A stretch of DNA of 56,771 bases from positions 1-56,771 of IMG/VR virus record IMGVR_UViG_3300012952_000002; one strand, 5' to 3'. The stretch's first letter is position 1; every line of letters begins with the position of its first letter. The stretch is from a virus. Its lineage: Duplodnaviria > Caudoviricetes. Made by a program: the position numbers and the translations under genes. This document shows, piece after piece, positions 5,309-42,213 of this stretch. The notes beneath the pieces are model-generated. The model searched no databases and had not been told where the DNA came from. It saw nothing but the letters and a program-made list of their open reading frames with translations.

Positions 5309-5616
5309 TATTCATCATGCCCCATTAGTGTCATATTCACGGATGCCGCTGTGGATCTGCCTATAATGTAGTCAGATGCTCCGGCTACGATTGGAGAAAA
5401 ACTTAAACTTTCATCTGGACCAATCATAGTGTTCTCTAGTAATTTCGTTGCGTTAGCAAACGTAGCAGAGCTATCTCCTACACCTAATTGAACAAACGCT
5501 GTTGATGAACCCCGATTAAGTATGTGAACTGTATACGTCCCCCCATTTGACCCCGCCTGTCCTACATTCGCTGTAGTGTTTGCGCTAAGATCAACGCCTG
5601 ATATTTTAACTGCCAT
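5308..5616 (-). CDS. Small beta-sandwich structural protein
   Basis: 102 aa, stop/start overlaps on both sides. Confidence 0.55.
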   Translation of the reverse strand: MAVKISGVDLSANTTANVGQAGSNGGTYTVHILNRGSSTAFVQLGVGDSSATFANATKLLENTMIGPDESLSFSPIVAGASDYIIGRSTAASVNMTLMGHDE

Positions 5617-5942
5617 TATATTTGCCCCATAAAAAAGACTTTACTGGTTGATATTGAAGAAGCAGTTTGAAAAGAAGGGGCATTACCTGATCCACCAGAT
5701 GTAAGAACTTGCCCTGCACTGCCTGTTGCCACTACCGCAGGGTCGCCTGACCCATTGTAGGCGATTAGGTTTCCTGCTGTTCCCCCTGCCATTTTAGCGA
5801 GACTCACTGCATTGTCTAAAATAGAATCCGTGACCACCGAATTCGATGCCAACTTATCTGCGTTGACCGCATCATTAACGATGGACGCAGTTGCCACTGA
5901 GTCTGTTGCCATTACTCCTGCTTTGACTTTAGTTAATGCCAT
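5616..5942 (-). CDS. Short tail-fibre repeat protein
   Basis: AV(T/N)xxK(L/I)A-type repeats and GSAGQVLTSGG...PSF, typical of phage fibre shafts. Confidence 0.6.
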   Translation of the reverse strand: MALTKVKAGVMATDSVATASIVNDAVNADKLASNSVVTDSILDNAVSLAKMAGGTAGNLIAYNGSGDPAVVATGSAGQVLTSGGSGNAPSFQTASSISTSKVFFMGQI

Positions 5943-6256
5943 TATGGAACGTCCTCCGCTCTGTCGTAAAAGGTCAGGGTAGGCTCATAATTATCGCGTT
6001 CTTCAGTAACAGTTAGATTTCCGTCTCCGTCGTACACGACACCTGTAGTCGAACTGCCATGATTCACAATGCAGATTTTTCCCATGTATTTATCAGCGTC
6101 ATATTCATCAACAAGATAAGTATCGGCATCACCACTCATGTCCCGTGAAACAGTTTTTAACTGAACAACAGTCGGGTAGGTTTTTTCAACATCGTCTTCC
6201 CCGACCTTATAAGTATGTTTTACATCTCCAAGAACAATTACGTTATACATATTCAA
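5942..6256 (-). CDS. Hypothetical acidic protein, possible fibre chaperone
   Basis: 104 aa, directly after the 648-aa fibre gene. Confidence 0.5.
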   Translation of the reverse strand: MNMYNVIVLGDVKHTYKVGEDDVEKTYPTVVQLKTVSRDMSGDADTYLVDEYDADKYMGKICIVNHGSSTTGVVYDGDGNLTVTEERDNYEPTLTFYDRAEDVP

Positions 6257-17700: not shown

Positions 17701-18781
17701 CATCTATTAAAGTATCTCTTCTGTTTCTAGCTGTTTCTCCTAAGTTACGAAAGTCACCCTGTTCTCTTGCTATGTTAATCTGTGAAACACCACTGGCTAC
17801 CGTTCCACCTGCTCCACCTAACGCACCACCACCAAAGAAACCCATGAAGGCAGCTTCTGCAAGACGCAACTGAGCATCTTGAGTATCAAACTCATCATCC
17901 ATTTCCATGCGATTAGCAACGGCTATACCTTCTTGGACTACTTCTGTACCGCCTTGAACCGTAGCAGACCGTAAAGTTGACTTACCAATATCAGAAGCAA
18001 AACGACCAAGGTACGTTCCAGGTCCCGTAGAACGTTTAGCTGCAACGTTCATTAACGCTTTTGCCATAACAGCTTCACCACCTACGCCAATAACAGCTTG
18101 CGGTAAAGCAACAGCCCCTGCCCTGAAAGCTGTACCTCTATCTAACTCTTCTCCTGACTCTAGTGCTTCAGAAAGATTACTACCGGAAAGAGGAACATAC
18201 TCAGAAACACCTGCACCAGTTAAGGCCCCTCTAGTAATTGCTTTTCTTCTAAGTTCCCTTTGCTGCCCAACAAACATACGGTAAGCATTAGCGGCTAAAA
18301 CGGACTCATCTAAACTCGCCTTACCCGTTAGCGCCTTTTCAGTTGCATCTCGTATTAATCGTTTAGCTACAGCACGAGAACCTGTAGACATTATGCCTTG
18401 CCCTACAGCAGCTGCTGCCCCACCTACTCCTGCAGATACAATAGAGCTAATAGCATAAGGAGCCAGTTGACCTGTTCCTTTTGCTACCTGAGAAAAAAAT
18501 CCTTGGATAGTTGGTTCATCTAAGAAGCGCCCAAATGATTCAACGCCCTGCAAAGGCACAGCTGCAAACTCTTCTTCGTACCTAGCACTTTCTATGTTTC
18601 TGGCAGCAGCTTCATCATCACCAATAAGGGTCTGACCTAACGCCTGAAAGTAATCTATGTCTGCTTTAGTTTGTTGTACAGTGCCTCTAAACCCCCGTTT
18701 AAAAGTATCAACCAACCCTCTAGGTTTGTCTTCTACTTGAGGAATGTCACCTGAAAGTAAACGGGTAAAATATTCACTCAT
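11780..18781 (-). CDS. Giant internal virion/ejection (polyvalent-type) protein
   Basis: 2333 aa; Gly/Ala-rich hydrophobic N-terminal third, HEIGH zincin-like motif, helical C-terminus; last of a run of internal-protein genes. Confidence 0.7.
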   Translation of the reverse strand: MSEYFTRLLSGDIPQVEDKPRGLVDTFKRGFRGTVQQTKADIDYFQALGQTLIGDDEAAARNIESARYEEEFAAVPLQGVESFGRFLDEPTIQGFFSQVAKGTGQLAPYAISSIVSAGVGGAAAAVGQGIMSTGSRAVAKRLIRDATEKALTGKASLDESVLAANAYRMFVGQQRELRRKAITRGALTGAGVSEYVPLSGSNLSEALESGEELDRGTAFRAGAVALPQAVIGVGGEAVMAKALMNVAAKRSTGPGTYLGRFASDIGKSTLRSATVQGGTEVVQEGIAVANRMEMDDEFDTQDAQLRLAEAAFMGFFGGGALGGAGGTVASGVSQINIAREQGDFRNLGETARNRRDTLIDAARENTGQMFGEENRQAAKTKVGEILAKAREYIDQGREAIVSRVINREQFGDADSGFTSPESAADIQAQLNAMTDDSKGGSQKQAVWVAGNTPTQGATRNGQIQTVVVNGFEAFAAFIPNRGTIVSRNKNLVEAVVRDGASENSLKEALGYSAVKDALEPQDAVVQVLDKDDNVVSEEVTTDANIPNAQVAAERLKPNGGTVNVLTVEKALEDRKRKFESEPQEMRVRGTTPKAEVRAKSGQILGEPAPFTPSQTVELRRQVIQTIAELKAEDARIRALENPVIDPETNDTAASSRLRQIRVELERVYDLDPELQQAFADAEPQRRSTATLDQRGVVTDVLDESTLADTTQATDSDVQLVEEKVGTSTYPPKPANQRVFPKEKKQREEYKLEFPETDFQNSEARFYSEQLLREAVRAKRQYRDSTIQIRKNQEGRYEVFRTFPESATTYVLQDSFNRIELPDGSIVDEARFPLPEFLERSVNKAANSQFAPASGVRIKPPEGRGREREVNLVDILNMGARILEAESKIYYGTAVSDRVLRRESLLEALGTLVENGYEVSIRQGTLDNTFENINDLDDIGFITSKVIAAVVDVGGVNKAITLRDLFSDEVNSLFQRDKAGQVIKDKEGRPLLTPEIKERLEKGTFEFFDPDSMKPEEVSSLTEFDQVISVEGENKLDPNEIRVDARVATGLLRLDQIPEDQRYKPTPYALAAAGVRTGERMVYVPVDYVSKINEKETLESVGAKNVDQVAPTKRLTIDNRPKTRTSLKYIPAIVEDNVITGFVGFKHRKGKNGERILITDKDGNPIPYNPLYDPMFDEEGNAIYGTLAVTDKRPLTRSNIEEPDSITLIRGDGSIAQYTVPEATTIITDTELNQATQLQLPLGQGVGFGTPPSLTDDRRTGDLSIPQRDTPQRDTPQRDDSQLEFIGEDFQNETTATPETTATPETTATPETTATPETTATPEPQRPSLVVFDTLRDQALGRQREEKITRDKLKQEALEKQNRKVELETKAKEEGLNKQESAELQKEKQSTNNYFDYTDVQDTTGQAVFEEGVAAGLEVQDGQLVLPKNYGISDPIVVSFINSALKLAKLNIPPIILSSDLIASLDAAGLLEKYLSKKDADQARQFIAQPDVYGLHIPSHSSKGRSIIFVDSNLNPLVQGKTAAHEIGHVLFRQLKDSMLTKREIRERLQKAFEKSAKYKQYMDAARNNASVAFNEFFSDEFAKRASESFLSKKPKNIIDKAFKDFVSKMKQYWRSANRAFRERLDTPMNETFQSFLDDVLASKRKSEDVRPDNEASQNIINDVTDKVIRDGGPELRAAVNKITQVVRRIINGKPAKAAYEILFSADSYLRKVATPFIADIFYVRAQQPRSARDPDVASALGFVPSVGRARQKLENLFLKMVGDPSKPETIEAIREAHRNVPTEQLNPDIPLAVEVRNFYDKVYETYIQGTNSKIGKRKNFTPIILDLEAIAQFKDAFIETILTESNQLNDDVARARVTQTVINLIEEGDSNLELLGESIWSPDPQKGREKARRLTSDIDPIILLEKGFIRQPEESLAEYINGITKRVEWNRHTKDSKGRDILGPAMEKLPPDQRQKARQIIETYLGFQKAPLSPFWREVNSWAQVVQFYTILPFVTLASLTELAGPFIASKEFASLTDGFKAIRDSIKDYKEAELFARDLNVIGPETIATVFLTESERQFMTPKARKSSDLFFKYTGLNFFTHFTRIFASQMGINFIIRHADPASTNERSARYLDELNLNAADVLAWSRSGRDMTTPTGKKIQAGLTRFVESSILRPNSAERPLWASDPRYAVIWQLKSFFWSFGKVIGGGTLREARTRLQEGESIVDGITDTAALLGLAALALFPLTMLGLELREYAKNGLAWLLPGVEPSAKYFRSDRMDWPDYMSEIVDRSGVYGPFTLLIMMQQASDWGRFPLTPALGPTAETIETIFRNGFDIGKTFEQRLIPIRNQL
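14816..14909. repeat. Perfect 18-bp tandem repeat x5 (encodes ETTATP)
   Basis: TTCAGGCGTAGCAGTAGT x5 plus TTCA. Confidence 0.95.
14948..14990. repeat. 15-bp tandem repeat x~3 (encodes TPQRD)
   Basis: ATCTCTCTGAGGTGT x2 plus a 13-bp partial copy. Confidence 0.9.
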
Positions 18782-31668: not shown

Positions 31669-33306
31669 TTATGCACTCATCGATGACTTGGTTCGTTCAG
31701 GCTTCATCATGCTGTTTAACCTGTCGCGCCAACTGGGTGTATGAATTACAGGGGCTTGATAGCTAGAAAATTCAGTCATCATCAGACCTAGCCACGCTAA
31801 TGCGTCTACTTGGTCATCATGTATGCCGCTTGGGAAACGCAACAACTCTGCAACTAGCGGTCCTGTGAAGATCGCATCTTTGGGGAAGTACACCATTCCT
31901 TGTTGCATCCGTCCCTGTATTGCTCTTGCCCTAGCTTCTTTGTCTCTTCTACCTGTCTTCAAGTCCTTAATGTATATCTCGTATAATCCTCTCTCCCGTA
32001 TCCGCTTCTCCAAAAACGGACCTAATGCCATTTCAATGTGTCCTTTCTCAATGCCCACCATTGATGGTTTCCATTCTTCATAGAGATCAAGTATGCGCTC
32101 TACGATCTCGAAACCATCAAATCTACCACGTACTACATCAATCACAAAGAGTTCATCTCTGTCATTGACTCCTACGACCATGCCTACGGTATAGTCATTT
32201 CGATCACGTTTACCTATCGCCAAGTCCCAAGCACAGTAGTAGCGCATGGCTTCTGGGTCTATATCATCGTCATCGTAATACTGAATCATCTCGCGTGTAA
32301 AGTATTCTCCGTCATCTGATACCGGATTCTGCTGATACAGCGCAGACCAATCACGCGGTCCTACTGCACTACGGATCTGACTCAAAGCCGCTAAACTGTA
32401 TCTTTCTGGGTGGAGGGCATCTCCATGATCTCGATATTCTTCTTTCTCTTCTGCGATGGCAGGGTAGCGTACAACTTCCCAAACGTCACCGCCCTCATCA
32501 GACGCTTTAAGCAATCGCCCAGCCAAGTCATCGTCATGCCAACGAGTAAGTATGACCAGAATGCCCCCACCAGGAGCCAATCGGGTATAGGCTGTGGAAG
32601 TGTACCAATCCCAATTAGCCGATCTATTATTCTCCGACTCACTGTCCTCGCGGTTCTTAATAGGATCGTCAATAACAAGAACGTGCGCTCCTTTACCTGT
32701 GATACCACCGCCAACACCTGCCGCCACATAGCCGCCACCGCCTGTAGTCAGCCACGCTTCAGCCGACTGCGAATCTGGGTCAAGGCGTGTTTGAAACGCT
32801 GTTTTGTAAGTTGGCTCACGCAATAGTTGACGAACTTTACGACTGAATCCCATAGCCAACGAGCCTGAGTACGAACAAGAGATAAATTCGTGTTCAGGAT
32901 TCCTGCCCAAGTGCCAAGCTGGGAAGGAGACAGATGCAAGCGTACTTTTGCCATGACGAGGCGGCATAAAGAGCATAAGCCTTGGAGACTTTTTTGCCAC
33001 CACATCACGGCTGAATTGTTCCAAGCGTCTGCAAATATCTTTATGAACCCACCCTGCTTGGTAATCTGCGTTAAACCGTTCAACAAACGGGAGTAACCTC
33101 TTGCGAGTAAGGATTCGGAGGGCGAGTTCTTTTCGTGCTTTGTCTTCAACGCTTAACTCCTCTGTTGTTTCTTGTGCCTGAATGGGTGCTGGTGCAGGAA
33201 GAGACTCTGTTCGATCCGCTTTACAGTAGACGCAAACGCCATCTGTTCCACTAAACAAAGTCTCTACGTGAAAATTGGTGCAAACGCTGCACTGTTTTTT
33301 ATTCAC
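31669..33306 (-). CDS. terL: Terminase large subunit
   Basis: Walker A MPPRHGKS, Walker B LVIDDP, TRWH.DDL, nuclease AWDLA and FP.G.HDDQVDA; N-terminal CxxC...CxxC. Confidence 0.95.
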   Translation of the reverse strand: MNKKQCSVCTNFHVETLFSGTDGVCVYCKADRTESLPAPAPIQAQETTEELSVEDKARKELALRILTRKRLLPFVERFNADYQAGWVHKDICRRLEQFSRDVVAKKSPRLMLFMPPRHGKSTLASVSFPAWHLGRNPEHEFISCSYSGSLAMGFSRKVRQLLREPTYKTAFQTRLDPDSQSAEAWLTTGGGGYVAAGVGGGITGKGAHVLVIDDPIKNREDSESENNRSANWDWYTSTAYTRLAPGGGILVILTRWHDDDLAGRLLKASDEGGDVWEVVRYPAIAEEKEEYRDHGDALHPERYSLAALSQIRSAVGPRDWSALYQQNPVSDDGEYFTREMIQYYDDDDIDPEAMRYYCAWDLAIGKRDRNDYTVGMVVGVNDRDELFVIDVVRGRFDGFEIVERILDLYEEWKPSMVGIEKGHIEMALGPFLEKRIRERGLYEIYIKDLKTGRRDKEARARAIQGRMQQGMVYFPKDAIFTGPLVAELLRFPSGIHDDQVDALAWLGLMMTEFSSYQAPVIHTPSWRDRLNSMMKPERTKSSMSA

Positions 33307-33812
33307 TTAGGCTCCAGATAGGCAGTTTCTCTCCCTGCAATCTCCAGTAGTTCCTCGTCAGTCAATCGCTCCAACTGCTTAGCAGTCGTATTGATGCTTA
33401 TGTTCACCTGCGTAGCGTTATCTGGCTCTCCTAGCCCGTGCAACTTGACCAAAGAATCTACTGTGTTCTTCATCTCTGTTGCATTTGCTGCTGCGGTGTA
33501 TGCTTCCATATACATCTGGTGTGCGTTGTTGCGATTGAATCTGACTTCTTCTCGCATCTGTTCCCGAAAATACTCTAGTGCTTTAGCTACTTTCGGTAAC
33601 TTTGATGCGTTAAGTGCAGCGGTGTATGTGCCATACCCTGCTGAGCGACCTGCTGCAGCCACTGTCATGCCGCTACTAATCATTAGTACCAGCCGTTCCT
33701 GCTGCACAGTCAACTCGCCAAGCTGTAGGCCCATGTAAGGAACATGAGATTCAAACTCAGCATGGGGCATTTCTACCATATCAGTAGTTAAAGGGTTTCC
33801 CACTTCACTCAT
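33303..33812 (-). CDS. terS: Terminase small subunit (putative)
   Basis: LT.QQE.L...G.T..AA...AGY HTH-like N-terminus, L.KLHGL; overlaps terL start. Confidence 0.65.
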   Translation of the reverse strand: MSEVGNPLTTDMVEMPHAEFESHVPYMGLQLGELTVQQERLVLMISSGMTVAAAGRSAGYGTYTAALNASKLPKVAKALEYFREQMREEVRFNRNNAHQMYMEAYTAAANATEMKNTVDSLVKLHGLGEPDNATQVNISINTTAKQLERLTDEELLEIAGRETAYLEPK

Positions 33813-34013
33813 CAGGGCATCTTATACACAAGAACCTTGTATGCACAAGGGGCTAGGAAAAATTTTGCAGAAAAAAAATTTGAAAAATTAATCTATATCG
33901 CTGAGACATTATCTCCTCTTTCGCACAGTTCGACACCGTAACACCGGAACCCCGACCACTGAACCTTGTTTTGCACTTGCTTCTCGGAACCTTGTCCATC
34001 AGTAACCCCTTCA

Positions 34014-34055
34014 CTTCACCTAAAACCAAAACAATCGGTGAAGCTCAAGTCAAAT
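34014..34055 (+). repeat. Type-1 early element A (stem, 16-nt loop, stem, CTCAAGTCAAAT)
   Basis: CTTCACC-TAAAACCAAAACAATC-GGTGAAG-CTCAAGTCAAAT. Confidence 0.85.
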
Positions 34056-34089
34056 TGATTTGTAATTCAACTAAATCAAGGACATACCA

Positions 34090-34476
34090 ATGGTCATAGC
34101 AACTATCATCCACGGAAACAACAAGATCGCCACCATCAACATACCTTCAACCATCATAGGCATCAACGATCAACTAGAATTTGCCTTCTCCACAGCACAG
34201 AACCATGACGGCAACATGGGCTGGGACAATGACCCTCTCGTTACAATGCTACCTAACAACAAAGCACCAAGATCCACAATGGACGGGGACCACATAATCA
34301 TCAGCTACCCCACTACTATCACCACTACCACCTTCAAAATACTGCCCATCGGCTTCGAGATTGTATACCCAAGCGTCACTGAGCAGATCACCAACCGCCT
34401 CAAGCCTCACGCGGTCAGCTTGCTCCAACGTGTGTCAAGTGTGTGTCAGGACTGTGTGTCACGTTTACAATCGTAA
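34090..34476 (+). CDS. Early hypothetical protein
   Basis: 128 aa, AAGGA RBS; 3' end runs into the GTGTGTC repeats. Confidence 0.6.
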   Translation: MVIATIIHGNNKIATINIPSTIIGINDQLEFAFSTAQNHDGNMGWDNDPLVTMLPNNKAPRSTMDGDHIIISYPTTITTTTFKILPIGFEIVYPSVTEQITNRLKPHAVSLLQRVSSVCQDCVSRLQS

Positions 34477-34712
34477 CACACTGAATCAATTGAACTTTAT
34501 CCAATGTGTGTCGTGTGTGTCAGCTTTTTCAACTTTCACATACTTCACACACCCTATAAACATAAGATTTATAGCCATATTTACAACAATTTCTAAAAAA
34601 CTAAAAACCAAAGAAAAACTAGACACACTTGGCACACAGTTGATTTTACTGGCTAAAACTCGACACACATAGGGCACACATCTAAACACACACCCCAAAA
34701 CCAAACACACAC
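34430..34712. repeat. Inverted iteron array flanking an AT-rich spacer (origin candidate)
   Basis: Five GTGTGTC (34430-34521), AT-rich 34555-34620, six RRCACAC (34622-34712). Confidence 0.6.
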
Positions 34713-34756
34713 CTTGAGCCTAAAACCAAAACCATCGGCTCAAGCTCAAGTCAAAT
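34713..34756 (+). repeat. Type-1 early element B
   Basis: CTTGAGCC-TAAAACCAAAACCATC-GGCTCAAG-CTCAAGTCAAAT. Confidence 0.85.
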
Positions 34757-34788
34757 TATCAACTAAATCACTTGGCAGGAGGCCAAAC

Positions 34789-34959
34789 ATGACACACACA
34801 TTAAACTTATACGACACACTTCACTACCACCTAGAATACGAAGCATGGATAGATAACGACATCTCCATCTTCTCTGACGAGATACTCAACAGAATCCTTC
34901 AGGACTTCTGGTATCTATTCCTCACCAGCCACTCAACCTCAACCGAACCACCCTTCTAA
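34789..34959 (+). CDS. Early hypothetical protein (56 aa)
   Basis: AGGAGG RBS before MTHTLNLYD; the track start at 34714 lies inside the repeat. Confidence 0.65.
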   Translation: MTHTLNLYDTLHYHLEYEAWIDNDISIFSDEILNRILQDFWYLFLTSHSTSTEPPF

Positions 34960-34967
34960 CACAACCA

Positions 34968-35007
34968 AGCCTACTCAGACTCGTCTGGGTGGGCTAACCC
35001 TCGTGAC
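34968..35007 (+). repeat. Type-2 early hairpin, copy 1
   Basis: AGCCTACTCAGA-CTCG-TCTGGGTGGGCT then AACCCTCGTGA. Confidence 0.9.
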
Positions 35008-35027
35008 CTTACAACTAGGAAACTCAC

Positions 35028-35159
35028 ATGACCAACGCTTACATATACATCTTACGCATACTACGCATCAGAACTTACCCAGTAACCAAGCACAACCCAC
35101 TCTTTGTATGCGGTGTGCTGGTACGAGACTCAGACATCGACAACCTTTACAACTCATAA
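35028..35159 (+). CDS. Early hypothetical protein (43 aa)
   Basis: Hand-translated MTNAYIYILRILRIRTYP...NLYNS; AGGA RBS. Confidence 0.55.
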   Translation: MTNAYIYILRILRIRTYPVTKHNPLFVCGVLVRDSDIDNLYNS

Positions 35160-35174
35160 CCAACAGGAACTCAC

Positions 35175-35318
35175 ATGACCAAAGAACAAATGGACCGAAC
35201 TCTAGCGAAACACAAAGCAAAAAGAGAACAAGCAGAAATCTCTCGCATGGACGCAGAACTATCAGCATCCAACTTCATAATCATCTTACTTACCGTAGCT
35301 ATCGTCATACTATGGTAA
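35175..35318 (+). CDS. Early small membrane protein (47 aa)
   Basis: Hand-translated MTKEQMDR...FIIILLTVAIVILW; CAGGA RBS. Confidence 0.6.
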   Translation: MTKEQMDRTLAKHKAKREQAEISRMDAELSASNFIIILLTVAIVILW

Positions 35319-35326
35319 CAAAGCTA

Positions 35327-35365
35327 AGCCTACTCAGATTTATCTGGGTGGGCTTCTCCCCGTGA
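35327..35365 (+). repeat. Type-2 early hairpin, copy 2
   Basis: AGCCTACTCAGA-TTTA-TCTGGGTGGGCT then TCTCCCCGTGA. Confidence 0.9.
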
Positions 35366-35388
35366 ACTCATAACTAACAGGAACCAAC

Positions 35389-35643
35389 ATGAACGAAGAA
35401 ACAATCGAAACAAAACCATCACTACTAGACCAAGCCAAACTAGCTGGACTCAAAGCAATATCTTTCACAGCTAAACTAGGCACACAAACCTTAACCTACG
35501 CAAAGAATCACCCAGACGAAGTGCTACTCGCTATCACAGCAGTATGCCTCTGGGACATGGATCAAGCACTAGAATCAATCGATGAAAACACAGAGCTATC
35601 AGCCGCAGTTGACATCACCGAGTACCACGAAGCTAGATCCTAA
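35389..35643 (+). CDS. Early hypothetical protein
   Basis: 84 aa, CAGGA RBS. Confidence 0.7.
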   Translation: MNEETIETKPSLLDQAKLAGLKAISFTAKLGTQTLTYAKNHPDEVLLAITAVCLWDMDQALESIDENTELSAAVDITEYHEARS

Positions 35644-35653
35644 AACCCAAACC

Positions 35654-35699
35654 AGCTTGGGGCTAACACCAAAACCATCGCCCCAAGCTACAGTCAAAT
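35654..35699 (+). repeat. Type-1 early element C
   Basis: AGCTTGGGGC-TAACACCAAAACCATC-GCCCCAAGCT-ACAGTCAAAT. Confidence 0.85.
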
Positions 35700-35733
35700 C
35701 TATCTGTAAATTTTCTAACGGAGTGCTATACCT

Positions 35734-36090
35734 ATGCTACAACAAGAACTTCTCAGCAACATCAAACAATACGACAAAAAGACCTCACGCTTTGAACAAT
35801 TCCACCAAGAGTTCAAAGACAAGTGCGACAGCTTAGCCGAAGCTGGAGACTACGGCAAACTTGCCAAGCTCGCCTATGGCAAAGGCCGTAAAGCTGCGGA
35901 CTTCGCTGCTAAAGCGGCACGAGAAACAGATGACGATCAACAGTCATACCTTCTCAAAGTGCAGAGATACTGCCTCGAAGAAGAAGCCTACGCAAACGAA
36001 TGCTTTGCAAGAGGCACTGAGGAACAAGTATTCTCAGCACTAGAGAAAGAGACAGGCACTGAACTCTTAGTCTGCTCACTCGCCCCTTAA
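35734..36090 (+). CDS. Early hypothetical protein
   Basis: 118 aa helical, GGAG upstream. Confidence 0.7.
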   Translation: MLQQELLSNIKQYDKKTSRFEQFHQEFKDKCDSLAEAGDYGKLAKLAYGKGRKAADFAAKAARETDDDQQSYLLKVQRYCLEEEAYANECFARGTEEQVFSALEKETGTELLVCSLAP

Positions 36091-36097
36091 CCAATCA

Positions 36098-36136
36098 AGC
36101 CTACTCAGATTCGTCTGGGTGGGCTTGTCCTCGTGA
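36098..36136 (+). repeat. Type-2 early hairpin, copy 3
   Basis: AGCCTACTCAGA-TTCG-TCTGGGTGGGCT then TGTCCTCGTGA. Confidence 0.9.
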
Positions 36137-36157
36137 ATCCACAACTAGGCAACACCA

Positions 36158-36358
36158 ATGAGAAAATATAAAGCACACAAAGAAGGACTAAAAGCTCTCG
36201 GACTAGCTAATGAAAAATTTGATGAAGAACTAAAGTACCCAATAAGCTCAGCATTAGCTATTAGCGAGATACAAAAGATACAAACCATACTATTCTGGGC
36301 TTTATTCTTAGGCACAGAACAACACCACACAATACGCAAACACAGCAACTGGATCTAG
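36158..36358 (+). CDS. Early hypothetical protein
   Basis: 66 aa after type-2 copy 3. Confidence 0.55.
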   Translation: MRKYKAHKEGLKALGLANEKFDEELKYPISSALAISEIQKIQTILFWALFLGTEQHHTIRKHSNWI

Positions 36359-36367
36359 GAGGATCTT

Positions 36368-36568
36368 ATGGAAATTAAATTCTTACTACACACCATCGCA
36401 ATGCTGATCTTCCTCAGTGTTGCATGGTTCCTAACCACAACTTTAATACCACAACCTTCACCTCAAGAACTCTTATGGATCTCCATAGGAATCATCACAT
36501 TATGGGGAGGCGCAATGGTATATGAAGCCGACCAAGAATATTCAAATAGACATAGGAGGTCTAAGTGA
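36368..36568 (+). CDS. Small two-TM membrane protein
   Basis: AGGAGG RBS, two hydrophobic segments. Confidence 0.7.
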   Translation: MEIKFLLHTIAMLIFLSVAWFLTTTLIPQPSPQELLWISIGIITLWGGAMVYEADQEYSNRHRRSK

Positions 36569-36807
36569 GCCATCAACCAGAATTCACAGACGAAAAAATA
36601 CTAGCAATAGAGTATGCCACCCTATGCCGAAGGCTCGATGACCAAATAAAAACAGAAAAAGGCTACCAACAAGCTATTGATGAGATGGTAGCCATTATGA
36701 CTAGTCGACTTCAAGTGATGAAAGCAAGCGGTAGTATGGCAACCAAACACAGACTTGAAGAAATTGAAAACGGAGATATGTCATTCTTAAATAGGGGGGT
36801 GAGATAA
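36565..36807 (+). CDS. Hypothetical protein
   Basis: AGGAGG RBS, GTGA overlap. Confidence 0.7.
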   Translation: MSHQPEFTDEKILAIEYATLCRRLDDQIKTEKGYQQAIDEMVAIMTSRLQVMKASGSMATKHRLEEIENGDMSFLNRGVR

Positions 36808-36808
36808 A

Positions 36809-36949
36809 ATGAATGACACTTGCCCACACTGTAACTCAGAACTACTTGGTGATGGTTACACAGACTCTATCCACTGTGAGTTCGTAGAGAACGTGCCACT
36901 AGGCACAGAACCTGACGCTGAACCTATCTATTGCAACGTCATACCTTAA
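36809..36949 (+). CDS. Small Cys-rich (zinc-finger-like) protein (46 aa)
   Basis: Hand-translated MNDTCPHCNSELLGDGY...IHCE...PIYCNVIP. Confidence 0.65.
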   Translation: MNDTCPHCNSELLGDGYTDSIHCEFVENVPLGTEPDAEPIYCNVIP

Positions 36950-36955
36950 ACCCAC

Positions 36956-37004
36956 CGAGGCTCGGCCCTAAAACAAAAAGAGTCGGGCCTCGCTCAAGTC
37001 AAAT
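36956..37004 (+). repeat. Type-1 early element D
   Basis: CGAGGCTCGGCCC-TAAAACAAAAAGAGTC-GGGCCTCG-CTCAAGTCAAAT. Confidence 0.8.
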
Positions 37005-37045
37005 CTAATCGTACATTCATTGAGCTTTAAGGAGTAAAGCCAAGC

Positions 37046-37204
37046 ATGTTAGCAGAACTAAATCTTCACATAGAAAACTGGGACTTATTGGATAGCGATA
37101 CGCAAGACAGTCCCATTCACACTAATGAACGCATCAACCAAGCAATCATTAGAGAAGATACACTTACCGAATACGAATCTACCCATGTCTTAGGAGGACA
37201 ATAA
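37046..37204 (+). CDS. Small acidic protein (52 aa)
   Basis: Hand-translated MLAELNLHIENWDLLDSD...VLGGQ; TAAGGAG upstream. Confidence 0.55.
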   Translation: MLAELNLHIENWDLLDSDTQDSPIHTNERINQAIIREDTLTEYESTHVLGGQ

Positions 37205-37206
37205 CT

Positions 37207-37860
37207 ATGAGCGACACTTTCATAACCAATGCACTTGACCAAATGACCAGTAGAACAAACTTTATTGGGCATATGGCATCTGACATTTACTGCACCGACA
37301 CTGATGGCGAACCAAGAGTAGCGCATCAAATAACAGCTTACTACGCTAAACTACAGAACGCACGTAGCTCTGCCGCAGTAACTAACTCAAGCTACTCAGG
37401 TTCAAAGCCAGAAACACTCTTCACTTTTCTACCAGAGCTTATGACTAAAGTATGCTGGAACGCCAGACGACAAATCATTTCTCAGAAGATGGCAGAAGAG
37501 AACGACTTAGAGAACGGCCAAGACTACAGCCAAGACACTGCAAAAGAAACTGGCGTGTACGTCTCAACAAACCGTATCCCTGAGATTGTGAACGATGACT
37601 ACCAGACACTACAAACTGTGTACGGTATTCTTCTTGACGAAATGGACTACTTTGTAGAAATGGTAGACGATGCATTACCTTTATACATAGAGAAAGAGCC
37701 GGACACAGACGGCAACTGGCAAGTAGTCTACTCAACAGGCAACTGGGACGATGCACTTGAACGCATGAACGAGAAGGCCGACGCACTCAGAGACAAGGCC
37801 AACGAAATCAGTTCATCACAACTATCATCGAAGCTTAACAACCTACTCAAAGCTTCCTAA
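37207..37860 (+). CDS. Early hypothetical acidic protein
   Basis: 217 aa, AGGAGG RBS. Confidence 0.8.
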   Translation: MSDTFITNALDQMTSRTNFIGHMASDIYCTDTDGEPRVAHQITAYYAKLQNARSSAAVTNSSYSGSKPETLFTFLPELMTKVCWNARRQIISQKMAEENDLENGQDYSQDTAKETGVYVSTNRIPEIVNDDYQTLQTVYGILLDEMDYFVEMVDDALPLYIEKEPDTDGNWQVVYSTGNWDDALERMNEKADALRDKANEISSSQLSSKLNNLLKAS

Positions 37861-37869
37861 CCACAACCA

Positions 37870-37904
37870 AGCCTACTCAGATCCGTCTGGGTGGGCTTTT
37901 TTTA
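37870..37904 (+). terminator. Intrinsic terminator formed by type-2 hairpin copy 4
   Basis: AGCCTACTCAGA-TCCG-TCTGGGTGGGC followed by a T tract. Confidence 0.9.
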
Positions 37905-37994
37905 TTTTCTCCTTTCTATAGGTGCATTAAAATGCATCTTTTATAGCTGTTAACAAACCCCCGTTAACAGCATTTTTAAAACACTGGAGGAAAC

Positions 37995-38186
37995 GTGCCA
38001 TCTTCAAAAAATAATTTACATCAACAAGAAATTACAATCACAATCAAAAATATAGATGATGAAGTAGTTAATTTAGAAGAATTAATACTTACTATTTTTG
38101 AAACTGAACAAGGAAAAGAAATCATACGTGAACTTATACGTACTGAACTGATTGAACTAATCGGAGGTAAAGATGAGCGACATTGA
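37995..38186 (+). CDS. Hypothetical protein
   Basis: GGAGG RBS, GTG start. Confidence 0.6.
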   Translation: MPSSKNNLHQQEITITIKNIDDEVVNLEELILTIFETEQGKEIIRELIRTELIELIGGKDERH

Positions 38187-38502
38187 TCCAGCAACAGCAA
38201 TACGAAACTTGTGTGAACACATTGGAAATCAACGTGCTACCAACAAACCAATAAAACACAGATTCTTTTACTACAACTACACCAATGATGCGACAGCAAT
38301 TATTGATCGTGATGGTAATCCAGCAATTGAGTACATGGATTACATGCCTGACTACATCGTGAGGATATGTAATAAATGGCTGGGTAACACAACCGCTGAT
38401 GTCGAAGCAGCAGTAGCGTGCGAGATAGCAGGTGATTGGAGTGACTTTGATACGCATTTTGTTAGGCAAGGTGCAATGGATCAATTAAAATTGGAGATAT
38501 AA
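38173..38502 (+). CDS. Hypothetical protein
   Basis: GGAGG RBS, 109 aa. Confidence 0.7.
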   Translation: MSDIDPATAIRNLCEHIGNQRATNKPIKHRFFYYNYTNDATAIIDRDGNPAIEYMDYMPDYIVRICNKWLGNTTADVEAAVACEIAGDWSDFDTHFVRQGAMDQLKLEI

Positions 38503-38504
38503 AA

Positions 38505-38882
38505 ATGGGTAGATATTACAACGGTGACATCGAAGGCAAGTTCTGGTTTGGCGTGCAAACTAGCGACGATGCAAATTTCTTTGGCGTAGAAGGACAAGCC
38601 CCTTACTTAGAATACTACTTTGTAGAGGACGATCTGCCAAAGATCCAAAGCGGTATTGATACGTGCTTAAAAGAACTTGGTGATATGAAAACGGAACTCG
38701 ACAAGTTTTTTGATAGCGGTGGTGCAGGACTGCATAGCAAAGAAATTTTGCAACAAACTTTCAATATACAAAAAGAAGAAACAAACAATTTTCTTATATG
38801 GTACGCACGACTTGAGCTTGGTAACAAAATATTAGAGTGCGTGAAAGAAAACAATGAATGTTCATTTAGTGCAGAACTCTAG
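38505..38882 (+). CDS. Phage hypothetical protein
   Basis: MGRYY.GDIEGKFWFGVQ.SDDA N-terminus; GGAG RBS. Confidence 0.75.
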   Translation: MGRYYNGDIEGKFWFGVQTSDDANFFGVEGQAPYLEYYFVEDDLPKIQSGIDTCLKELGDMKTELDKFFDSGGAGLHSKEILQQTFNIQKEETNNFLIWYARLELGNKILECVKENNECSFSAEL

Positions 38883-38893
38883 GAGGAGTAAAA

Positions 38894-39181
38894 ATGTTTC
38901 TAGCAGGTACAATCGCAGCACTAGGTATGATCTTTCTATTACTAAAGTTCAACCTAAAACGAGTAGTTAAATTCGACATCGCACTTGATGTCATCATCAC
39001 ATTCTTCTTTGTGTGGATCTTCTTAGGCACATTCTCAGGCATGATGGCTGGCCTCATGGCTGGTTGTATTGTGTCTATCTTCTTGTATGCAGCAAGAAGG
39101 TTTATGCCACGAGAAGAACTAAAGTTCGTCAAGACTACGAGCTTCCCCTACCGCAAATTTATCTGGGTCAAAGCCCAGTAG
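38894..39181 (+). CDS. Membrane protein
   Basis: AGGAGGAG RBS; three hydrophobic segments. Confidence 0.75.
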   Translation: MFLAGTIAALGMIFLLLKFNLKRVVKFDIALDVIITFFFVWIFLGTFSGMMAGLMAGCIVSIFLYAARRFMPREELKFVKTTSFPYRKFIWVKAQ

Positions 39182-39195
39182 AGGTGCGCACCGAA

Positions 39196-39295
39196 CCAGC
39201 GAGTGCCAGTTAACGGCTCCCGAAACCAGGGTAAAGACCGAAAAGGTAAGAGGGCAAAAACTACTCGTCATGTTAGCCGTGTGACAATTCGCTGG
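39196..39295 (+). ncRNA. Candidate multibranch structured RNA
   Basis: Intergenic; nested stems CCAGCGA/TCGCTGG and ACGGCT/AGCCGT enclose small hairpins. Confidence 0.4.
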
Positions 39296-39331
39296 GGGTA
39301 ACTTAAATCTTATAACTTTCAGGAGGAAAGT

Positions 39332-40087
39332 ATGCAAAAGGAGTCAAACTGGTACAAAAACGAGGAGGACTTAGCTCCTCGTCCCAACAATCCATACACC
39401 CAACTGTATGTAATGTATCGAGCATTGTACGAATGCAGTACCTCGCACAGTGGCACAGTAAAAGACGTAGCCTTTATGCTTGGCTGCATCGAAGCAAGTG
39501 GTGAGATGCCAGCAGGTATACGCCCTATTCGCCTCGACAAACATGGCAACAGTGCCAGTGATATGACTGCACGTTTGCGTGACTTATTCTATCGAGGCTA
39601 TGTAAGACGCGATGCTCCTGTTGATGAAGTGAATCCAACGGAGAGGCTCAACTACAACATGCCATATACTAAAACCGTACAGCTTGAAAGAGCAGTATGG
39701 AGGATTGCCACCAGAGAAGAGTTTGAGGAAGTAGCTGCGATATACATAAAGAAATCAATGGCAAGAGATAAAAAATACAGGGACTCTAGAAAAGGTGCTA
39801 AAAAAGAAGTCGTTAGATTAGTTCAAGGCGCTAAAGATTTTGCAGAACACGCAACGGATCTTTCTTCACAAAGACAAGCAGCTGAGAAAGAGTTCTTGGA
39901 TAAGAAATTAGCCTATGAAAGAGCTAGGTATAAAAATAAAACAAAAGAAACTTTGAAAGCACAAGCTCTTGAAGAAGTCAAAGCAGAGATCAAAGCCTCT
40001 CAGGTTAAGGCATTGAGATACGTCCTAACCTTTGGTGCTGGTGCTGGTATAGCTCTCATACTCACACTCTTGGGGAAACTTCTATGA
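39332..40087 (+). CDS. Hypothetical protein (possible HTH N-terminus, coiled coil, C-terminal TM)
   Basis: ARLRDL...GYV.R winged-helix-like segment; C-terminal hydrophobic anchor. Confidence 0.7.
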   Translation: MQKESNWYKNEEDLAPRPNNPYTQLYVMYRALYECSTSHSGTVKDVAFMLGCIEASGEMPAGIRPIRLDKHGNSASDMTARLRDLFYRGYVRRDAPVDEVNPTERLNYNMPYTKTVQLERAVWRIATREEFEEVAAIYIKKSMARDKKYRDSRKGAKKEVVRLVQGAKDFAEHATDLSSQRQAAEKEFLDKKLAYERARYKNKTKETLKAQALEEVKAEIKASQVKALRYVLTFGAGAGIALILTLLGKLL

Positions 40088-40629
40088 AAATATACAACGT
40101 CAACGAACAAATGATCAAGCTAATCAAACTGTTACGTCAAAAAGATATGTCTTTAGATCCACGCACACCATCTTACAAGTATGGCAATCCTGATATCCAA
40201 GCACAAATAAGAGACTGCTTGAACGCTCACAATGAGTTGGCCCTTAGTTCAGGATTCAGAGGTACATTTCGTGACGAAGTAACATTCAGCAAAAGGGATC
40301 TCAATATACTCAATACACCTCCCTTTCCAACTATTTCTGGAAGTCATAGGAAGTTTTGGGACGGTGAGATCATCTGGGACTACCACGCAGATGAAGAAGG
40401 ACTGCATCATCTGAACTGGTACTACTACAGAATCTTTATCACAGATGAAGAAGCAGAAGAAGAGTATCCCATATGGACTTGGTTACGACCTTGGCATATG
40501 AATGCAGATATTCTTGGAGAGAACTCAGGTCATGCCAACGATAAACAACTAGGAATGCTGTACGACAGAGCGCAAGAACACATGCGTGAGATAGCAGATG
40601 ACATTGAACTAGAAAAAGCGGGGTACTAA
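40084..40629 (+). CDS. Hypothetical protein
   Basis: 181 aa, ATGA overlap. Confidence 0.7.
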   Translation: MKIYNVNEQMIKLIKLLRQKDMSLDPRTPSYKYGNPDIQAQIRDCLNAHNELALSSGFRGTFRDEVTFSKRDLNILNTPPFPTISGSHRKFWDGEIIWDYHADEEGLHHLNWYYYRIFITDEEAEEEYPIWTWLRPWHMNADILGENSGHANDKQLGMLYDRAQEHMREIADDIELEKAGY

Positions 40630-40631
40630 AG

Positions 40632-40850
40632 ATGGGAAAAGTAGGAAGAAAAAGAAAATTTCCTGAAGGCGTTAGAAACCAAATAGTGTTTACAGTTGAT
40701 GATGACACGTTTAATCGTTTTATAGAAGCCAAAGACGTACTACAAAACAGTATGCCCGAAGCTTTGAAAAACATAGAAATCTCTAGGGTAGATGCTTTCA
40801 GAGGACTAATAGAATTTTTCCTCAATAACCACGACAACAAGGAGGACTAA
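40632..40850 (+). CDS. Small DNA-binding protein (ribbon-helix-helix-like)
   Basis: GRKRK arm, QIVFTVD strand, then two helices (ISRVDAFRGLIE). Confidence 0.45.
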   Translation: MGKVGRKRKFPEGVRNQIVFTVDDDTFNRFIEAKDVLQNSMPEALKNIEISRVDAFRGLIEFFLNNHDNKED

Positions 40851-40853
40851 ACC

Positions 40854-41291
40854 GTGGGCTATACACATTACTGGAAAACCACACAGCCAATGACGGCATA
40901 TGAATGGGCAGACATATGTAAATCTGCCATCACTTACTGCACCAGATCATCTGTACCAGTAGACATTAGAACTTCTATGTACATGCCAGCACCCTATGGC
41001 AAAGATACAAAACGCCTACGATCTGAAATAAAGATTGAAGGCATTGGTGAAGCAGGATATGAAACATTCGTTCTCTATCCATACGAAGAAAACTTTGCTT
41101 GTTGTAAAACAGGAAGGCGACCATATGATGAGATAATCGTAGCCGTACTCAATCGTGCAGCAGAACGTTGCCCTAAAAAGTTCTTCTGGAAAAGTGACGG
41201 CAACTGGGACGATCACGAAAGTGGTCTGACGCTACAGTATTCTCAACCAGCTAACCCTAAAACAACTGCTTACTACTGTGTAACTTACTGA
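40854..41291 (+). CDS. Phage hypothetical protein
   Basis: MGYTHYW...ETF...CKT.RRPYD...SDG; AGGAGG RBS. Confidence 0.75.
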   Translation: MGYTHYWKTTQPMTAYEWADICKSAITYCTRSSVPVDIRTSMYMPAPYGKDTKRLRSEIKIEGIGEAGYETFVLYPYEENFACCKTGRRPYDEIIVAVLNRAAERCPKKFFWKSDGNWDDHESGLTLQYSQPANPKTTAYYCVTY

Positions 41292-41299
41292 GGTGTGAC

Positions 41300-41458
41300 A
41301 TGACTATGCAAATAGACGAACTTGAAAAATTTTTGGAGTGGTTAAAAACTTCTCCAGCTACCAACTCTATATCTTCTATGTCTGGGGGATATGTTCACGT
41401 TAAATTCTTAATCCAACGTAGTCTAAATCAGATACAAAAAGAGGACGAAAAAGAATGA
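41300..41458 (+). CDS. Hypothetical protein (52 aa)
   Basis: Hand-translated MTMQIDELEKFLEWLKTSP...; GAGG RBS, ATGA overlap. Confidence 0.6.
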   Translation: MTMQIDELEKFLEWLKTSPATNSISSMSGGYVHVKFLIQRSLNQIQKEDEKE

Positions 41459-41637
41459 AGCTAAATAAAGCACAACAAAAATCCCTACACATAAAGTGGC
41501 TACAAGATAATCAAGGCTTATCTTACCTGCAGTTCAGACGCACCGTTGAATCAGGTTTAGGTATGGACAATTGTGCAATGGTAAAATGGGGCAACATGTG
41601 GCTAGGGATTGAAACTGACGGATATACCCATTCATAA
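41455..41637 (+). CDS. Hypothetical protein
   Basis: 60 aa ending WLGIETDGYTHS. Confidence 0.7.
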   Translation: MKLNKAQQKSLHIKWLQDNQGLSYLQFRRTVESGLGMDNCAMVKWGNMWLGIETDGYTHS

Positions 41638-41650
41638 ATCGGAGGAGAGT

Positions 41651-41830
41651 ATGGAGAAAGAGTATATAAAGTGTGCATTGTGCCATCAAGATATACAGCC
41701 TAATGCAATTGGTTGGGCAGAAGGACACAACGGACTACCTTTAGTTGACGGCAGAGTGTGTGATACCTGCAATTCATTTGTAGTAGAACACAGGATAAAT
41801 ACATTAGTGGGAGGTGAAAAATGTGGATAA
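41651..41830 (+). CDS. Small zinc-finger protein
   Basis: CALC...GHN..P...GRVCDTCN; GGAGGAG RBS before 41651. Confidence 0.7.
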   Translation: MEKEYIKCALCHQDIQPNAIGWAEGHNGLPLVDGRVCDTCNSFVVEHRINTLVGGEKCG

Positions 41831-42213
41831 AAGTAATTCCACCTGTCTACAAAAAACTGACTAAGACAATGCTAACCAAAGGCAATCCTGATTGCTTCAA
41901 AGAACTCAAAGCATTTGCCCGTCTGTTTAGCGTAGACTTTTCCAAGAGAGTAGAGCTACCGTTAGTCTTTACAGACGGTACAGAAACAGTCATCCGGTTC
42001 TATCAGGTGACAGGTAACGGTGGTCGTAAAGACTGTCGTTACAACATTCCAGCAGGGGTATTGAAACAGCAAGCAGAGGTAGGTGATACCATTGCTTTCT
42101 CGTTTACACATACCAACGATGGAAAAGTTATGCTTGTGGCTAACGTCACACGGCATAAAGAGTACGAACATCTCACACGAGATGAAATCAAATGGACCGA
42201 TACTGGTTCTTAA
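41821..42213 (+). CDS. Hypothetical protein
   Basis: GGAGG RBS, 130 aa. Confidence 0.7.
   Translation: MWIKVIPPVYKKLTKTMLTKGNPDCFKELKAFARLFSVDFSKRVELPLVFTDGTETVIRFYQVTGNGGRKDCRYNIPAGVLKQQAEVGDTIAFSFTHTNDGKVMLVANVTRHKEYEHLTRDEIKWTDTGS

What the first reader, a model, noticed from the sequence alone, without database searches (positions are those of the whole stretch)
34014..37004. Four covarying hairpins with a conserved 16-nt loop and a CTCAAGTCAAAT tail, each ahead of an early gene
Seen: stems differ in sequence but stay paired (CTTCACC/GGTGAAG, CTTGAGCC/GGCTCAAG, AGCTTGGGGC/GCCCCAAGCT, and GGCCC/GGGCC with an outer CGAG/CTCG). Loops are all 16 nt near TAAAACCAAAACCATC, and the 3' tail CT(CA/AC)AGTCAAAT precedes the RBS and ATG by ~30-40 nt. 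Copy D has an alternative 11-bp register with G-U pairs. Compensatory stems with fixed loop and tail indicate a single-stranded structure read by a protein. I saw no sigma70 promoter in this region and do not recognise the motif. Hypotheses: hairpin promoter (cf. N4 vRNAP), antitermination or processing site, DNA-entry signal, or recombination site (hairpin plus TCAA loosely recalls IS200/IS605 ends). This is the best candidate for an undescribed system.
Basis: partly seen in the sequence, partly recalled or inferred. Interest (0 to 1): 0.85.

Follow-up and report, generated by a model that had tools for sequence, protein, structure and literature searches.

The report
Hairpin signals before phage early genes
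Four matching hairpin-plus-tail sequences sit in front of the first gene blocks of an uncultured marine phage, and its relatives carry their own versions at the same places, so they are most likely start signals for early gene expression, read by a factor that has not been identified.

Summary
The window is a complete 56.8-kb phage genome. It has exactly four copies of a 7-10 bp variable stem, a 16-nt loop and a 12-nt tail. All four lie on the + strand at the head of the early arm, 32-41 nt before a start codon. Stems covary (5 of 7 pairs; 0 of 500 shuffles reach the observed score). No Rfam family matches.

Close relatives (terminase 96-99% identical) lose homology exactly where copies A and B begin and carry different hairpin-plus-tail motifs there. 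One relative type has a 5-bp stem, an invariant TTC triloop and a GGTCAG tail. It covaries strongly and is built like the hairpins ahead of N4 gp1 and gp2. No N4-type virion RNA polymerase, other polymerase or sigma factor was found, and the window's 16-nt loop is unlike N4.

Best reading: lineage-specific early promoters of hairpin type with an unknown reader (about 0.38). Main rival: an RNA operator or nut-like site read by an early phage protein (about 0.30). No transcript data exist.

The scan noted similar lineage-specific hairpins on other phage DNA (e1-3418399, e1-5754664).

The parts
34014..34055 (+). Copy A: stem CTTCACC/GGTGAAG, loop TAAAACCAAAACAATC, tail CTCAAGTCAAAT. First element of the early arm, 34 nt before the ATG at 34090.
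   Evidence: Homology to close relatives ends at 34009-34019.
34713..34756 (+). Copy B: stem CTTGAGCC/GGCTCAAG, loop TAAAACCAAAACCATC, tail CTCAAGTCAAAT. Follows the iteron region directly, 32 nt before the ATG at 34789.
   Evidence: The second homology block with relatives ends at 34710-34711.
35654..35699 (+). Copy C: stem AGCTTGGGGC/GCCCCAAGCT, loop TAACACCAAAACCATC, tail (CT)ACAGTCAAAT. Starts 10 nt after the stop of the conserved 84-aa gene, 34 nt before the ATG at 35734.
36956..37004 (+). Copy D: arms CGAG..GCCC/GGGCCTCG (or an 11-bp register with two G-U pairs), loop TAAAACAAAAAGAGTC, tail CTCAAGTCAAAT. Starts 6 nt after a stop codon, 41 nt before the ATG at 37046.
   Evidence: The loop varies in contigs of other runs (36974 C>G in 4 of 4 runs).

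Best explanation
The four elements are the early promoters (transcription-unit start signals) of this phage. Each consists of an inverted repeat that must pair, a sequence block presented by that repeat (here the 16-nt loop), and a tail holding GTC 6-8 nt past the stem, within or just after which RNA synthesis would begin. That would give leaders of about 30-40 nt. Shown: the anatomy, the covariation, the positions, the replacement by type among relatives, and the N4-like hairpin geometry of one relative type. Inferred: that the hairpin forms in DNA, that transcription starts there, and that a phage-delivered or phage-modified polymerase reads it.
For: (1) Position. All 4 copies lie on the coding strand within the first 3 kb of the early arm, each 32-41 nt before a start codon with a Shine-Dalgarno sequence. 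Copy A is the first thing after the conserved junction. (2) No alternative promoter was seen. The sigma-70 scan of 33000-42000 gave 13 sites against 16.6 expected. On the + strand between 33000 and 37004 the only site is at 34443, inside the iterons. An alignment of 19 relatives' junctions shows no conserved -35/-10 pair. (3) Relatives have 2-4 copies of their own motif on one strand in the early arm. In L006 one copy follows a hairpin with a T-run, which is terminator-like. (4) Type specificity resembles phage polymerase-promoter pairs. Terminase is 96-99% identical, yet homology stops at 34009-34019 and at 34710-34711, and another motif stands there. (5) In 14 elements of the GGTCAG type, 99.1% of cells pair, 6 of 8 pairs change on both sides, and the TTC loop is invariant and closed by C:G in 11 of 14, which gives a GAA triloop on the template strand. 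The N4 genome has a 5-bp stem with a TTC or TCC triloop, then 4 nt, then G, ahead of gp1 and gp2. The N4 review describes 5-7 bp stems, 3-nt loops, a template-strand loop with 5'G and 3'A closed by C:G, variable stem bases that only need to pair, and a +1C on the template (passages). (6) Across 51 unique first elements, 35 have a perfect stem of 5 bp or more against 18.4 +/- 3.5 in shuffles, and GTC[AG][GA] is present in 29 of 51 against 185 of 979 background windows.
Against: No polymerase or sigma factor was found. Pfam and PHROGs on 35 distinct proteins gave none. phrog_2206 (N4 virion polymerase) gave 0 matches at E<=10 in this genome and in 5 relatives that are 92-100% complete. Motif regexes for T7-like and two-barrel polymerases hit only the DNA polymerase or gave unconvincing short matches. 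BLASTP of the 2333-aa virion protein against N4 gp50 gave nothing. A 16-nt loop is poorly suited to cruciform extrusion from duplex DNA (established knowledge, not tested here). In cultured relative KPP25 the GGA triloop lies on the sense strand, the opposite polarity to N4. 16 of 51 first elements lack a stem of 5 bp or more. G.T versus A.C counts in stems give no strand signal (16 versus 17). There are no transcript data.
Confidence: 0.38

Rival explanations
1. RNA-level control site. The hairpin and tail are transcribed as part of early mRNAs that start from an unrecognised promoter in the conserved junction. A lineage-specific early phage protein (or a host factor) binds them and acts as an antitermination (nut-like) site, a translational operator or a processing/stability signal.
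For: A 16-nt loop on a 7-10 bp stem is normal for RNA. The second hairpin family in the same region has two G-U pairs on the sense strand, and one copy is a terminator, so RNA hairpins are in use here. Copies C and D start 6-10 nt after stop codons. The loops of several relatives are C/U-rich and CCUCC-like, complementary to the AGGAG ribosome sites downstream. In KPP25 the GGA loop is on the sense strand. No polymerase has to be postulated. The whole early module, with its small genes, is swapped together with the motif.
Against: No promoter was found upstream of copy A. In L006 one copy lies behind a terminator-like hairpin with a T-run. A UUC triloop closed by C-G, invariant in 14 of 14, is not a favoured RNA loop, whereas its complement is a favoured DNA loop (the loop stabilities are recalled). 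The window loop is not complementary to its own ribosome sites. No candidate binding protein was identified: the conserved 217-aa early protein has no fold match.
Confidence: 0.3
2. PeSL-like composite cassettes without a dedicated reader. The hairpins act as weak terminators or insulators and as recombination joints between early gene cassettes. Within-genome similarity would come from copying rather than from selection by a specific factor.
For: Homology breakpoints with close relatives coincide with copies A and B. Cassette-sized indels occur in near-identical contigs of other runs (35020-35168 and 36562-36807). The PeSL papers describe composite terminator/promoter motifs at indel boundaries in T4-like phages (abstract and introduction read).
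Against: Copying would homogenise the stems as well, yet stems differ while loop and tail are kept. There is no T-run after the hairpins. No sigma-70-like promoter is part of the unit. The two indels have their ends at repeated ribosome-site contexts, not at the hairpins.
Confidence: 0.12
3. DNA replication or nicking signal: hairpin-plus-GTC sites where a primase starts or a nickase cuts one strand near the iteron origin.
For: The copies lie within 3 kb of an iteron array (34430-34712), all on one strand. Hairpins with stable triloops are known at single-strand initiation sites (recalled). The phage encodes a primase-helicase.
Against: The spacing to the next start codon is regular (32-41 nt), and every copy is intergenic at the head of a gene block. 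Relatives have copies far from the iterons. No nickase or HUH protein was found among the proteins scanned; not every small ORF was scanned.
Confidence: 0.07

Closest known systems
Early promoters of coliphage N4, read by the virion RNA polymerase gp50
   Same: Several copies lie on one strand at the head of the early region. An inverted repeat has variable bases that only need to pair, next to conserved bases that continue to the start site. In the GGTCAG-type relatives the hairpin is a 5-bp stem with a TTC triloop closed by C:G, followed by 4 nt and then G, as ahead of N4 gp1.
   Different: The window's loop is 16 nt, not 3. No gp50 homologue exists in this genome or in 5 relatives. The phage is not a schitovirus: its nearest cultured relatives are KPP25/phiR18, phiA008 and AP1. 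Loop and tail differ between close relatives. KPP25 has the opposite loop polarity.
PeSLs (promoter-early stem-loops) of T4-like phages
   Same: A stem-loop plus a conserved sequence sits between small early genes, at the boundaries of replaced or inserted cassettes.
   Different: PeSLs combine a terminator with a sigma-70-type early promoter. Here there is no T-run and no sigma-70-like hexamer pair, and the stems vary while loop and tail are fixed.
Lambdoid nut sites (boxA plus boxB hairpin) read by N proteins
   Same: A phage-specific hairpin has a conserved loop and stands just ahead of the first early gene and again further on. Specificity changes between close relatives together with the early module. 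A more widely conserved short motif lies upstream (AGTAACCCC).
   Different: No N-like protein was identified, the copies are four rather than two, the loop is 16 nt, and the phage shows no lysogeny genes among those scanned.
Intrinsic terminators and intercistronic stabiliser hairpins
   Same: The hairpin lies directly after a stop codon for copies C and D.
   Different: No U-run follows. The loop is far larger than the 3-8 nt of terminators. None of A-D is called by the terminator scan, while the other hairpin family is.

Membership tests
N4-type virion-polymerase hairpin promoters | Inverted repeat giving a 5-7 bp stem and a 3-nt loop | tested here: not met
   Window copies have 7-10 bp stems and 16-nt loops. 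The feature is met only in the GGTCAG-type relatives (14 of 14).
N4-type virion-polymerase hairpin promoters | Template-strand loop with 5'G and 3'A closed by a C:G pair | tested here: not met
   The window's template-strand loop is the 16-nt complement of TAAAACCAAAACCATC. Relatives of the GGTCAG type have a GAA loop closed by C:G in 11 of 14. In KPP25 the GGA loop is on the sense strand.
N4-type virion-polymerase hairpin promoters | Variable stem bases keep pairing while neighbouring bases up to the start site are conserved | tested here: met
   (covariation); tails are identical or nearly so.
N4-type virion-polymerase hairpin promoters | A cognate virion RNA polymerase (gp50 family, phrog_2206) is encoded | tested here: not met
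   0 matches at E<=10 in the window genome and in 5 relatives that are 92-100% complete. BLASTP of the 2333-aa protein against gp50 gave nothing.
N4-type virion-polymerase hairpin promoters | Rifampicin-resistant transcription starts a fixed distance after the hairpin | not testable with these tools
   No RNA run holds the stretch.
PeSL composite terminator/promoter motifs | Stem-loop joined to a sigma-70-type early promoter | tested here: not met
   No sigma-70-like site at A, C or D. The only + strand site before 37004 is at 34443, inside the iterons.
PeSL composite terminator/promoter motifs | Located at the boundaries of indels or replacements between close relatives | tested here: met
   Homology with L005-L013 ends at 34009-34019 and at 34710-34711.
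Lambdoid nut sites | Hairpin with a phage-specific conserved loop downstream of an early promoter, plus a cognate N-type protein | tested here: inconclusive
   The conserved loop is present. No upstream promoter and no N-like protein were recognised.
Any Rfam family | Score at or above the family's gathering threshold | tested here: not met
   0 matches in the whole window on both strands.
Intrinsic terminators | G+C-rich hairpin with a 3-8 nt loop followed by a T-run | tested here: not met
   One search lists none of A-D. The tails are CTCAAGTCAAAT.

The most novel reading that the evidence does not exclude
A large, mostly marine clade of podovirus-like phages (more than 590 terminase relatives in IMG/VR) starts early transcription from single-strand hairpin promoters without any N4-type polymerase. 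That would mean an unrecognised virion-delivered or host-derived enzyme or specificity factor reads them. Lineages would exchange this promoter specificity together with the early gene module, so that 98%-identical virions carry mutually unreadable early regions.
Probability: 0.2. Interest if true: 0.85.

Novelty: new variant of a known kind. Interest (0 to 1): 0.62.

Why it matters
Hairpin promoters are proven only for N4-like phages and their giant injected polymerase. Here the same design logic, and in some relatives the same hairpin geometry, appears in an unrelated and abundant phage clade that lacks that enzyme. Either a new reader of structured DNA awaits discovery, or these are a new family of phage-specific RNA control sites. 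Either way, the elements give the first handle on how early genes are switched on in this clade. They also mark the joints where early modules are exchanged. Cultured Pseudomonas and Aeromonas relatives make the question directly testable.

Tried and rejected
Rfam on the whole window: 0 matches. tRNA/tmRNA: none.

Covariance model R1 on 80 terminase-relative loci plus the window: only the four window copies. An exact-pattern scan of IMG/VR for the loop-plus-tail gave 33 stretches. R1 scored 14 matches in them at 13.3-23.3 bits against 60.9-71.6 bits for the real copies, so I take them as chance.

blastn of 33800-37100 against cultured phages: no match.

RNA evidence: no RNA holder listed. The four DNA runs that I laid are contigs and cannot show RNA ends.

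Search for a reader:
- Pfam and PHROGs gave no polymerase or sigma factor.
- PDB sequence search with the 2333-aa and 866-aa proteins gave nothing useful.
- Motif regexes gave nothing convincing.
- The conserved 217-aa early protein gave a confident model, but no fold match at E<=0.001 in PDB or BFVD and no Atlas hit.
- I did not fold the 2333-aa protein.

Strand test: counting G.T against A.C in automatically picked stems gave 16 against 17 of 301 pairs. This is inconclusive, and the picker also caught unrelated hairpins.

Association of motif type with early gene families: the whole early module changes together, so no single gene could be singled out.

Sigma-32, sigma-E/ECF, sigma-54, sigma-28 and Bacteroidetes-type promoter readings of the element and the junction were tried by eye against recalled consensus sequences. 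I dropped them because the matching bases fall in variable stems or are missing in some copies.

Pairing of the loop with another phage sequence: no complement with up to 3 mismatches.

Papers on KPP25-like phages (passages only) say nothing on transcription. Supplements were not seen and could hold proteome or genome-end data.

Two of my scripts flooded the output and were only partly read.

Rows dropped: of 34 unique matches to the 10-mer TCRYGGTCAG, 15 had the two-helix architecture. 14 of those, with a 3-nt loop, were aligned. One with a 4-nt loop and 19 without the architecture were left out. Of 133 unique sequences behind the junction pattern, only the 51 with the ACCCC-type junction signature were counted.
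Full report
WHAT THE WINDOW IS. The window is a complete viral record of 56,771 bases with terminal repeats. Genes on the minus strand from 33812 down to 1 are structural: small and large terminase, portal, major head protein, tail fibre, internal virion proteins and a 2333-aa virion protein. Genes on the plus strand from 34090 onward are small early genes followed by replication genes: an SNF2-type helicase, a family A DNA polymerase, a primase-helicase and an exonuclease. The nearest cultured phages are Pseudomonas phages KPP25/phiR18 (head protein 52%, terminase 42%), Aeromonas phage phiA008 (terminase 49%) and Acidovorax phage AP1. IMG/VR holds at least 595 terminase relatives, of which 80 were kept. 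Four runs laid, labelled marine or seawater metagenomes, hold near-identical early regions as DNA contigs.

THE OBSERVATION. Four copies stand at 34014-34055, 34713-34756, 35654-35699 and 36956-37004, all on the plus strand. Each has a stem of 7-10 pairs, a 16-nt loop and a 12-nt tail. The tail ends 34, 32, 34 and 41 nt before a start codon that has a ribosome-binding site. All four occurrences of AGTCAAAT in the genome are these copies. RNA and DNA folding return exactly these hairpins. On a gap-free alignment, 92.9% of stem cells pair, 5 of 7 pairs change on both sides, no shuffle in 500 reaches the covariation score, and slid registers pair at 25-58%. The outer three pairs are shared by A-C, and the loop-proximal pairs vary. 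Copy D is the odd one: a bulged arm or a G-U register, and a loop matching at 11 of 16 positions. Its loop also varies in contigs from other runs. No Rfam family matches.

WHAT RELATIVES SHOW. A covariance model of the four copies finds nothing in 80 relatives' loci. This is not because relatives lack such elements. Close relatives (terminase 96-99% identical) align with the window up to 34009-34019 and again from about 34430 to 34710-34711. Homology therefore stops exactly where copies A and B begin. At those places L006 has three copies of another element: a variable stem, a loop holding CTCGTCCCTCGC and a tail TGTGTAGTGT. L005, L007-L009, L011-L013 and others each have further versions.

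All of these follow a junction that is conserved across 19 diverse relatives. It consists of an A/T-rich tract, AATCGCTGAGACAYTATCTCCC, two GGAACCTTGT boxes about 26 nt apart, and AGTAACCCC. Among 51 unique first elements, 35 have a perfect stem of 5 bp or more (shuffles give 18.4 +/- 3.5, maximum 26), and 29 contain GTC[AG][GA] within 70 nt, against 185 of 979 background windows. Sixteen of the 51 lack such a stem. Many of these instead have a C/T-rich block followed after 5-9 nt by RGTCGG (read by eye). The design is therefore a presented block plus a GTC-containing tail, usually with an inverted repeat.

THE GGTCAG TYPE AND N4. One type is frequent enough for statistics. It consists of (A)CGCTC, a 5-bp stem, TTC, the complementary arm, and then TC(R)(Y)GGTCAG. 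In 14 unique copies, 99.1% of cells pair in two helices separated by a TC/TC internal loop. Six of 8 pairs change on both sides. The TTC loop is invariant and is closed by C:G in 11 of 14. The records that hold this tail carry 2-4 copies on the early-gene strand; where their places can be judged they lie close together in the early arm. On the template strand the loop reads GAA closed by C:G.

Passages of the N4 review describe three early promoters with 5-7 bp stems, 3-nt loops, a template-strand loop with 5'G and 3'A closed by C:G, stem bases that only need to pair, and a template +1C. Reading the N4 genome itself, the sequence ahead of gp1 has a 5-bp stem, TTC, the other arm, 4 nt and then G. 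Ahead of gp2 the loop is TCC. That these two are the mapped promoters is my inference from the review. In the window, GTC lies 6-8 nt after the stem, the same spacing as in the GGTCAG type.

WHAT SPEAKS AGAINST AN N4-LIKE SYSTEM. The window's loops are 16 nt. The N4 polymerase family (phrog_2206, which scores N4 gp50 at 3964 bits) finds nothing at E<=10 in this genome or in five relatives that are 92-100% complete. Nothing resembling a polymerase or sigma factor was found by Pfam, PHROGs, PDB sequence search or motif regexes. In KPP25 the early hairpins have a GGA triloop on the sense strand, opposite to N4, and two further hairpins there are ordinary terminators. G.T versus A.C counts give no strand signal.

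MECHANISM. I commit to early promoters of a hairpin type with an unidentified reader, at about 0.38. The reasons are as follows:
- The elements head every early gene block.
- No sigma-70-like promoter is seen in the junction or beside the copies.
- One L006 copy follows a terminator-like hairpin.
- The specificity is swapped between near-identical phages, as in polymerase-promoter pairs.
- One type copies the N4 hairpin geometry, with a loop that is favoured in DNA rather than in RNA.

The main rival, at about 0.30, is an RNA site read by an early protein. The window's large loop, the anti-Shine-Dalgarno-like loops of several relatives, the position just after stop codons, the KPP25 polarity and the absence of any polymerase all fit it. 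It needs an upstream promoter that I could not find. PeSL-like cassettes without a reader (0.12) explain the breakpoints but not why the stems vary while loop and tail are kept. A priming or nicking signal (0.07) does not explain the regular spacing to start codons. Chance is excluded by the covariation counts.

COMPARISON AND NOVELTY. The element works like an N4 promoter or a nut site in design, but it is not a member of either family. The defining enzyme is absent, and the window copies fail the loop criteria. It shares with PeSLs the position at cassette joints but lacks their sigma-70 promoter and T-run. I found nothing in the papers searched on transcription of this clade (listings; text or passages). 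I rate it a new variant of a known kind, of fairly high interest because cultured relatives make it testable. Earlier notes of this scan describe comparable lineage-specific hairpins in other phages. I did not test those.

Noticed in passing
window 34967-34996, 35326-35355, 36095-36126, 37869-37898: A second hairpin family (AAGCCTACTCAGA, 4-nt loop, TCTGGGTGGGCTT) has two G-U pairs on the sense strand. Three copies are followed by a shared C(C/T)CGTGA tail and a ribosome site. The fourth is followed by a T-run and ends the early region. A perfectly paired version with a T-run occurs in L006.
   Followed up: partly
window 33860-34009: A conserved junction lies between the terminase arm and the early arm. 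It has an A/T tract, AATCGCTGAGACAYTATCTCCC, two GGAACCTTGT boxes (33961-33969, 33986-33995) and AGTAACCCC (34001-34009). It is kept in 19 diverse relatives while the flanks vary. It could be a packaging site, a genome end or an unrecognised promoter.
   Followed up: partly
window 34430-34712: GTGTGTC-type iterons in opposed orientation surround an AT-rich core between copies A and B. The array is conserved in close relatives (69-80% identity) although the genes on both sides are replaced.
   Followed up: partly
window 37207-37860: A 217-aa early protein is present in 18 of 37 relatives' early regions examined and is the last gene before the early terminator. Its structure model is confident (pLDDT 85), with no fold match in PDB or BFVD and no Pfam or PHROG family.
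   Followed up: yes
window 35389-35643: An 84-aa early protein with a conserved (Y)AK.(N/H)P.(D/E)(V/I) motif followed by a hydrophobic stretch was found in 23 of 37 relatives' early regions. It lies directly upstream of copy C.
   Followed up: no
window 34063-34068, 34764-34769, 35707-35712, 37012-37017: Exactly 7 nt after each tail stands TAATTC, TAAATC, TAAATT or TACATT. This is a weak -10-like hexamer with no -35 partner at 16-18 nt.
   Followed up: no
window 35020-35168 and 36562-36807: Contigs of other runs skip exactly these stretches, each one small gene. The deletion ends lie at repeated ribosome-site contexts, which shows cassette loss or gain among near-identical phages.
   Followed up: no
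window 11780-18781: The 2333-aa virion protein has an M78-type zinc peptidase motif near residue 1520, a TPETTA repeat near residue 1300, and a C-terminal part related to large virion structural proteins. No polymerase motif was found.
   Followed up: partly
L117 (KPP25) 4500-6320: The early arm of the cultured relative KPP25 has two 9-bp hairpins with a GGA triloop and a shared CT-rich tail ahead of its first two genes. These are followed by two ordinary terminators.
   Followed up: partly
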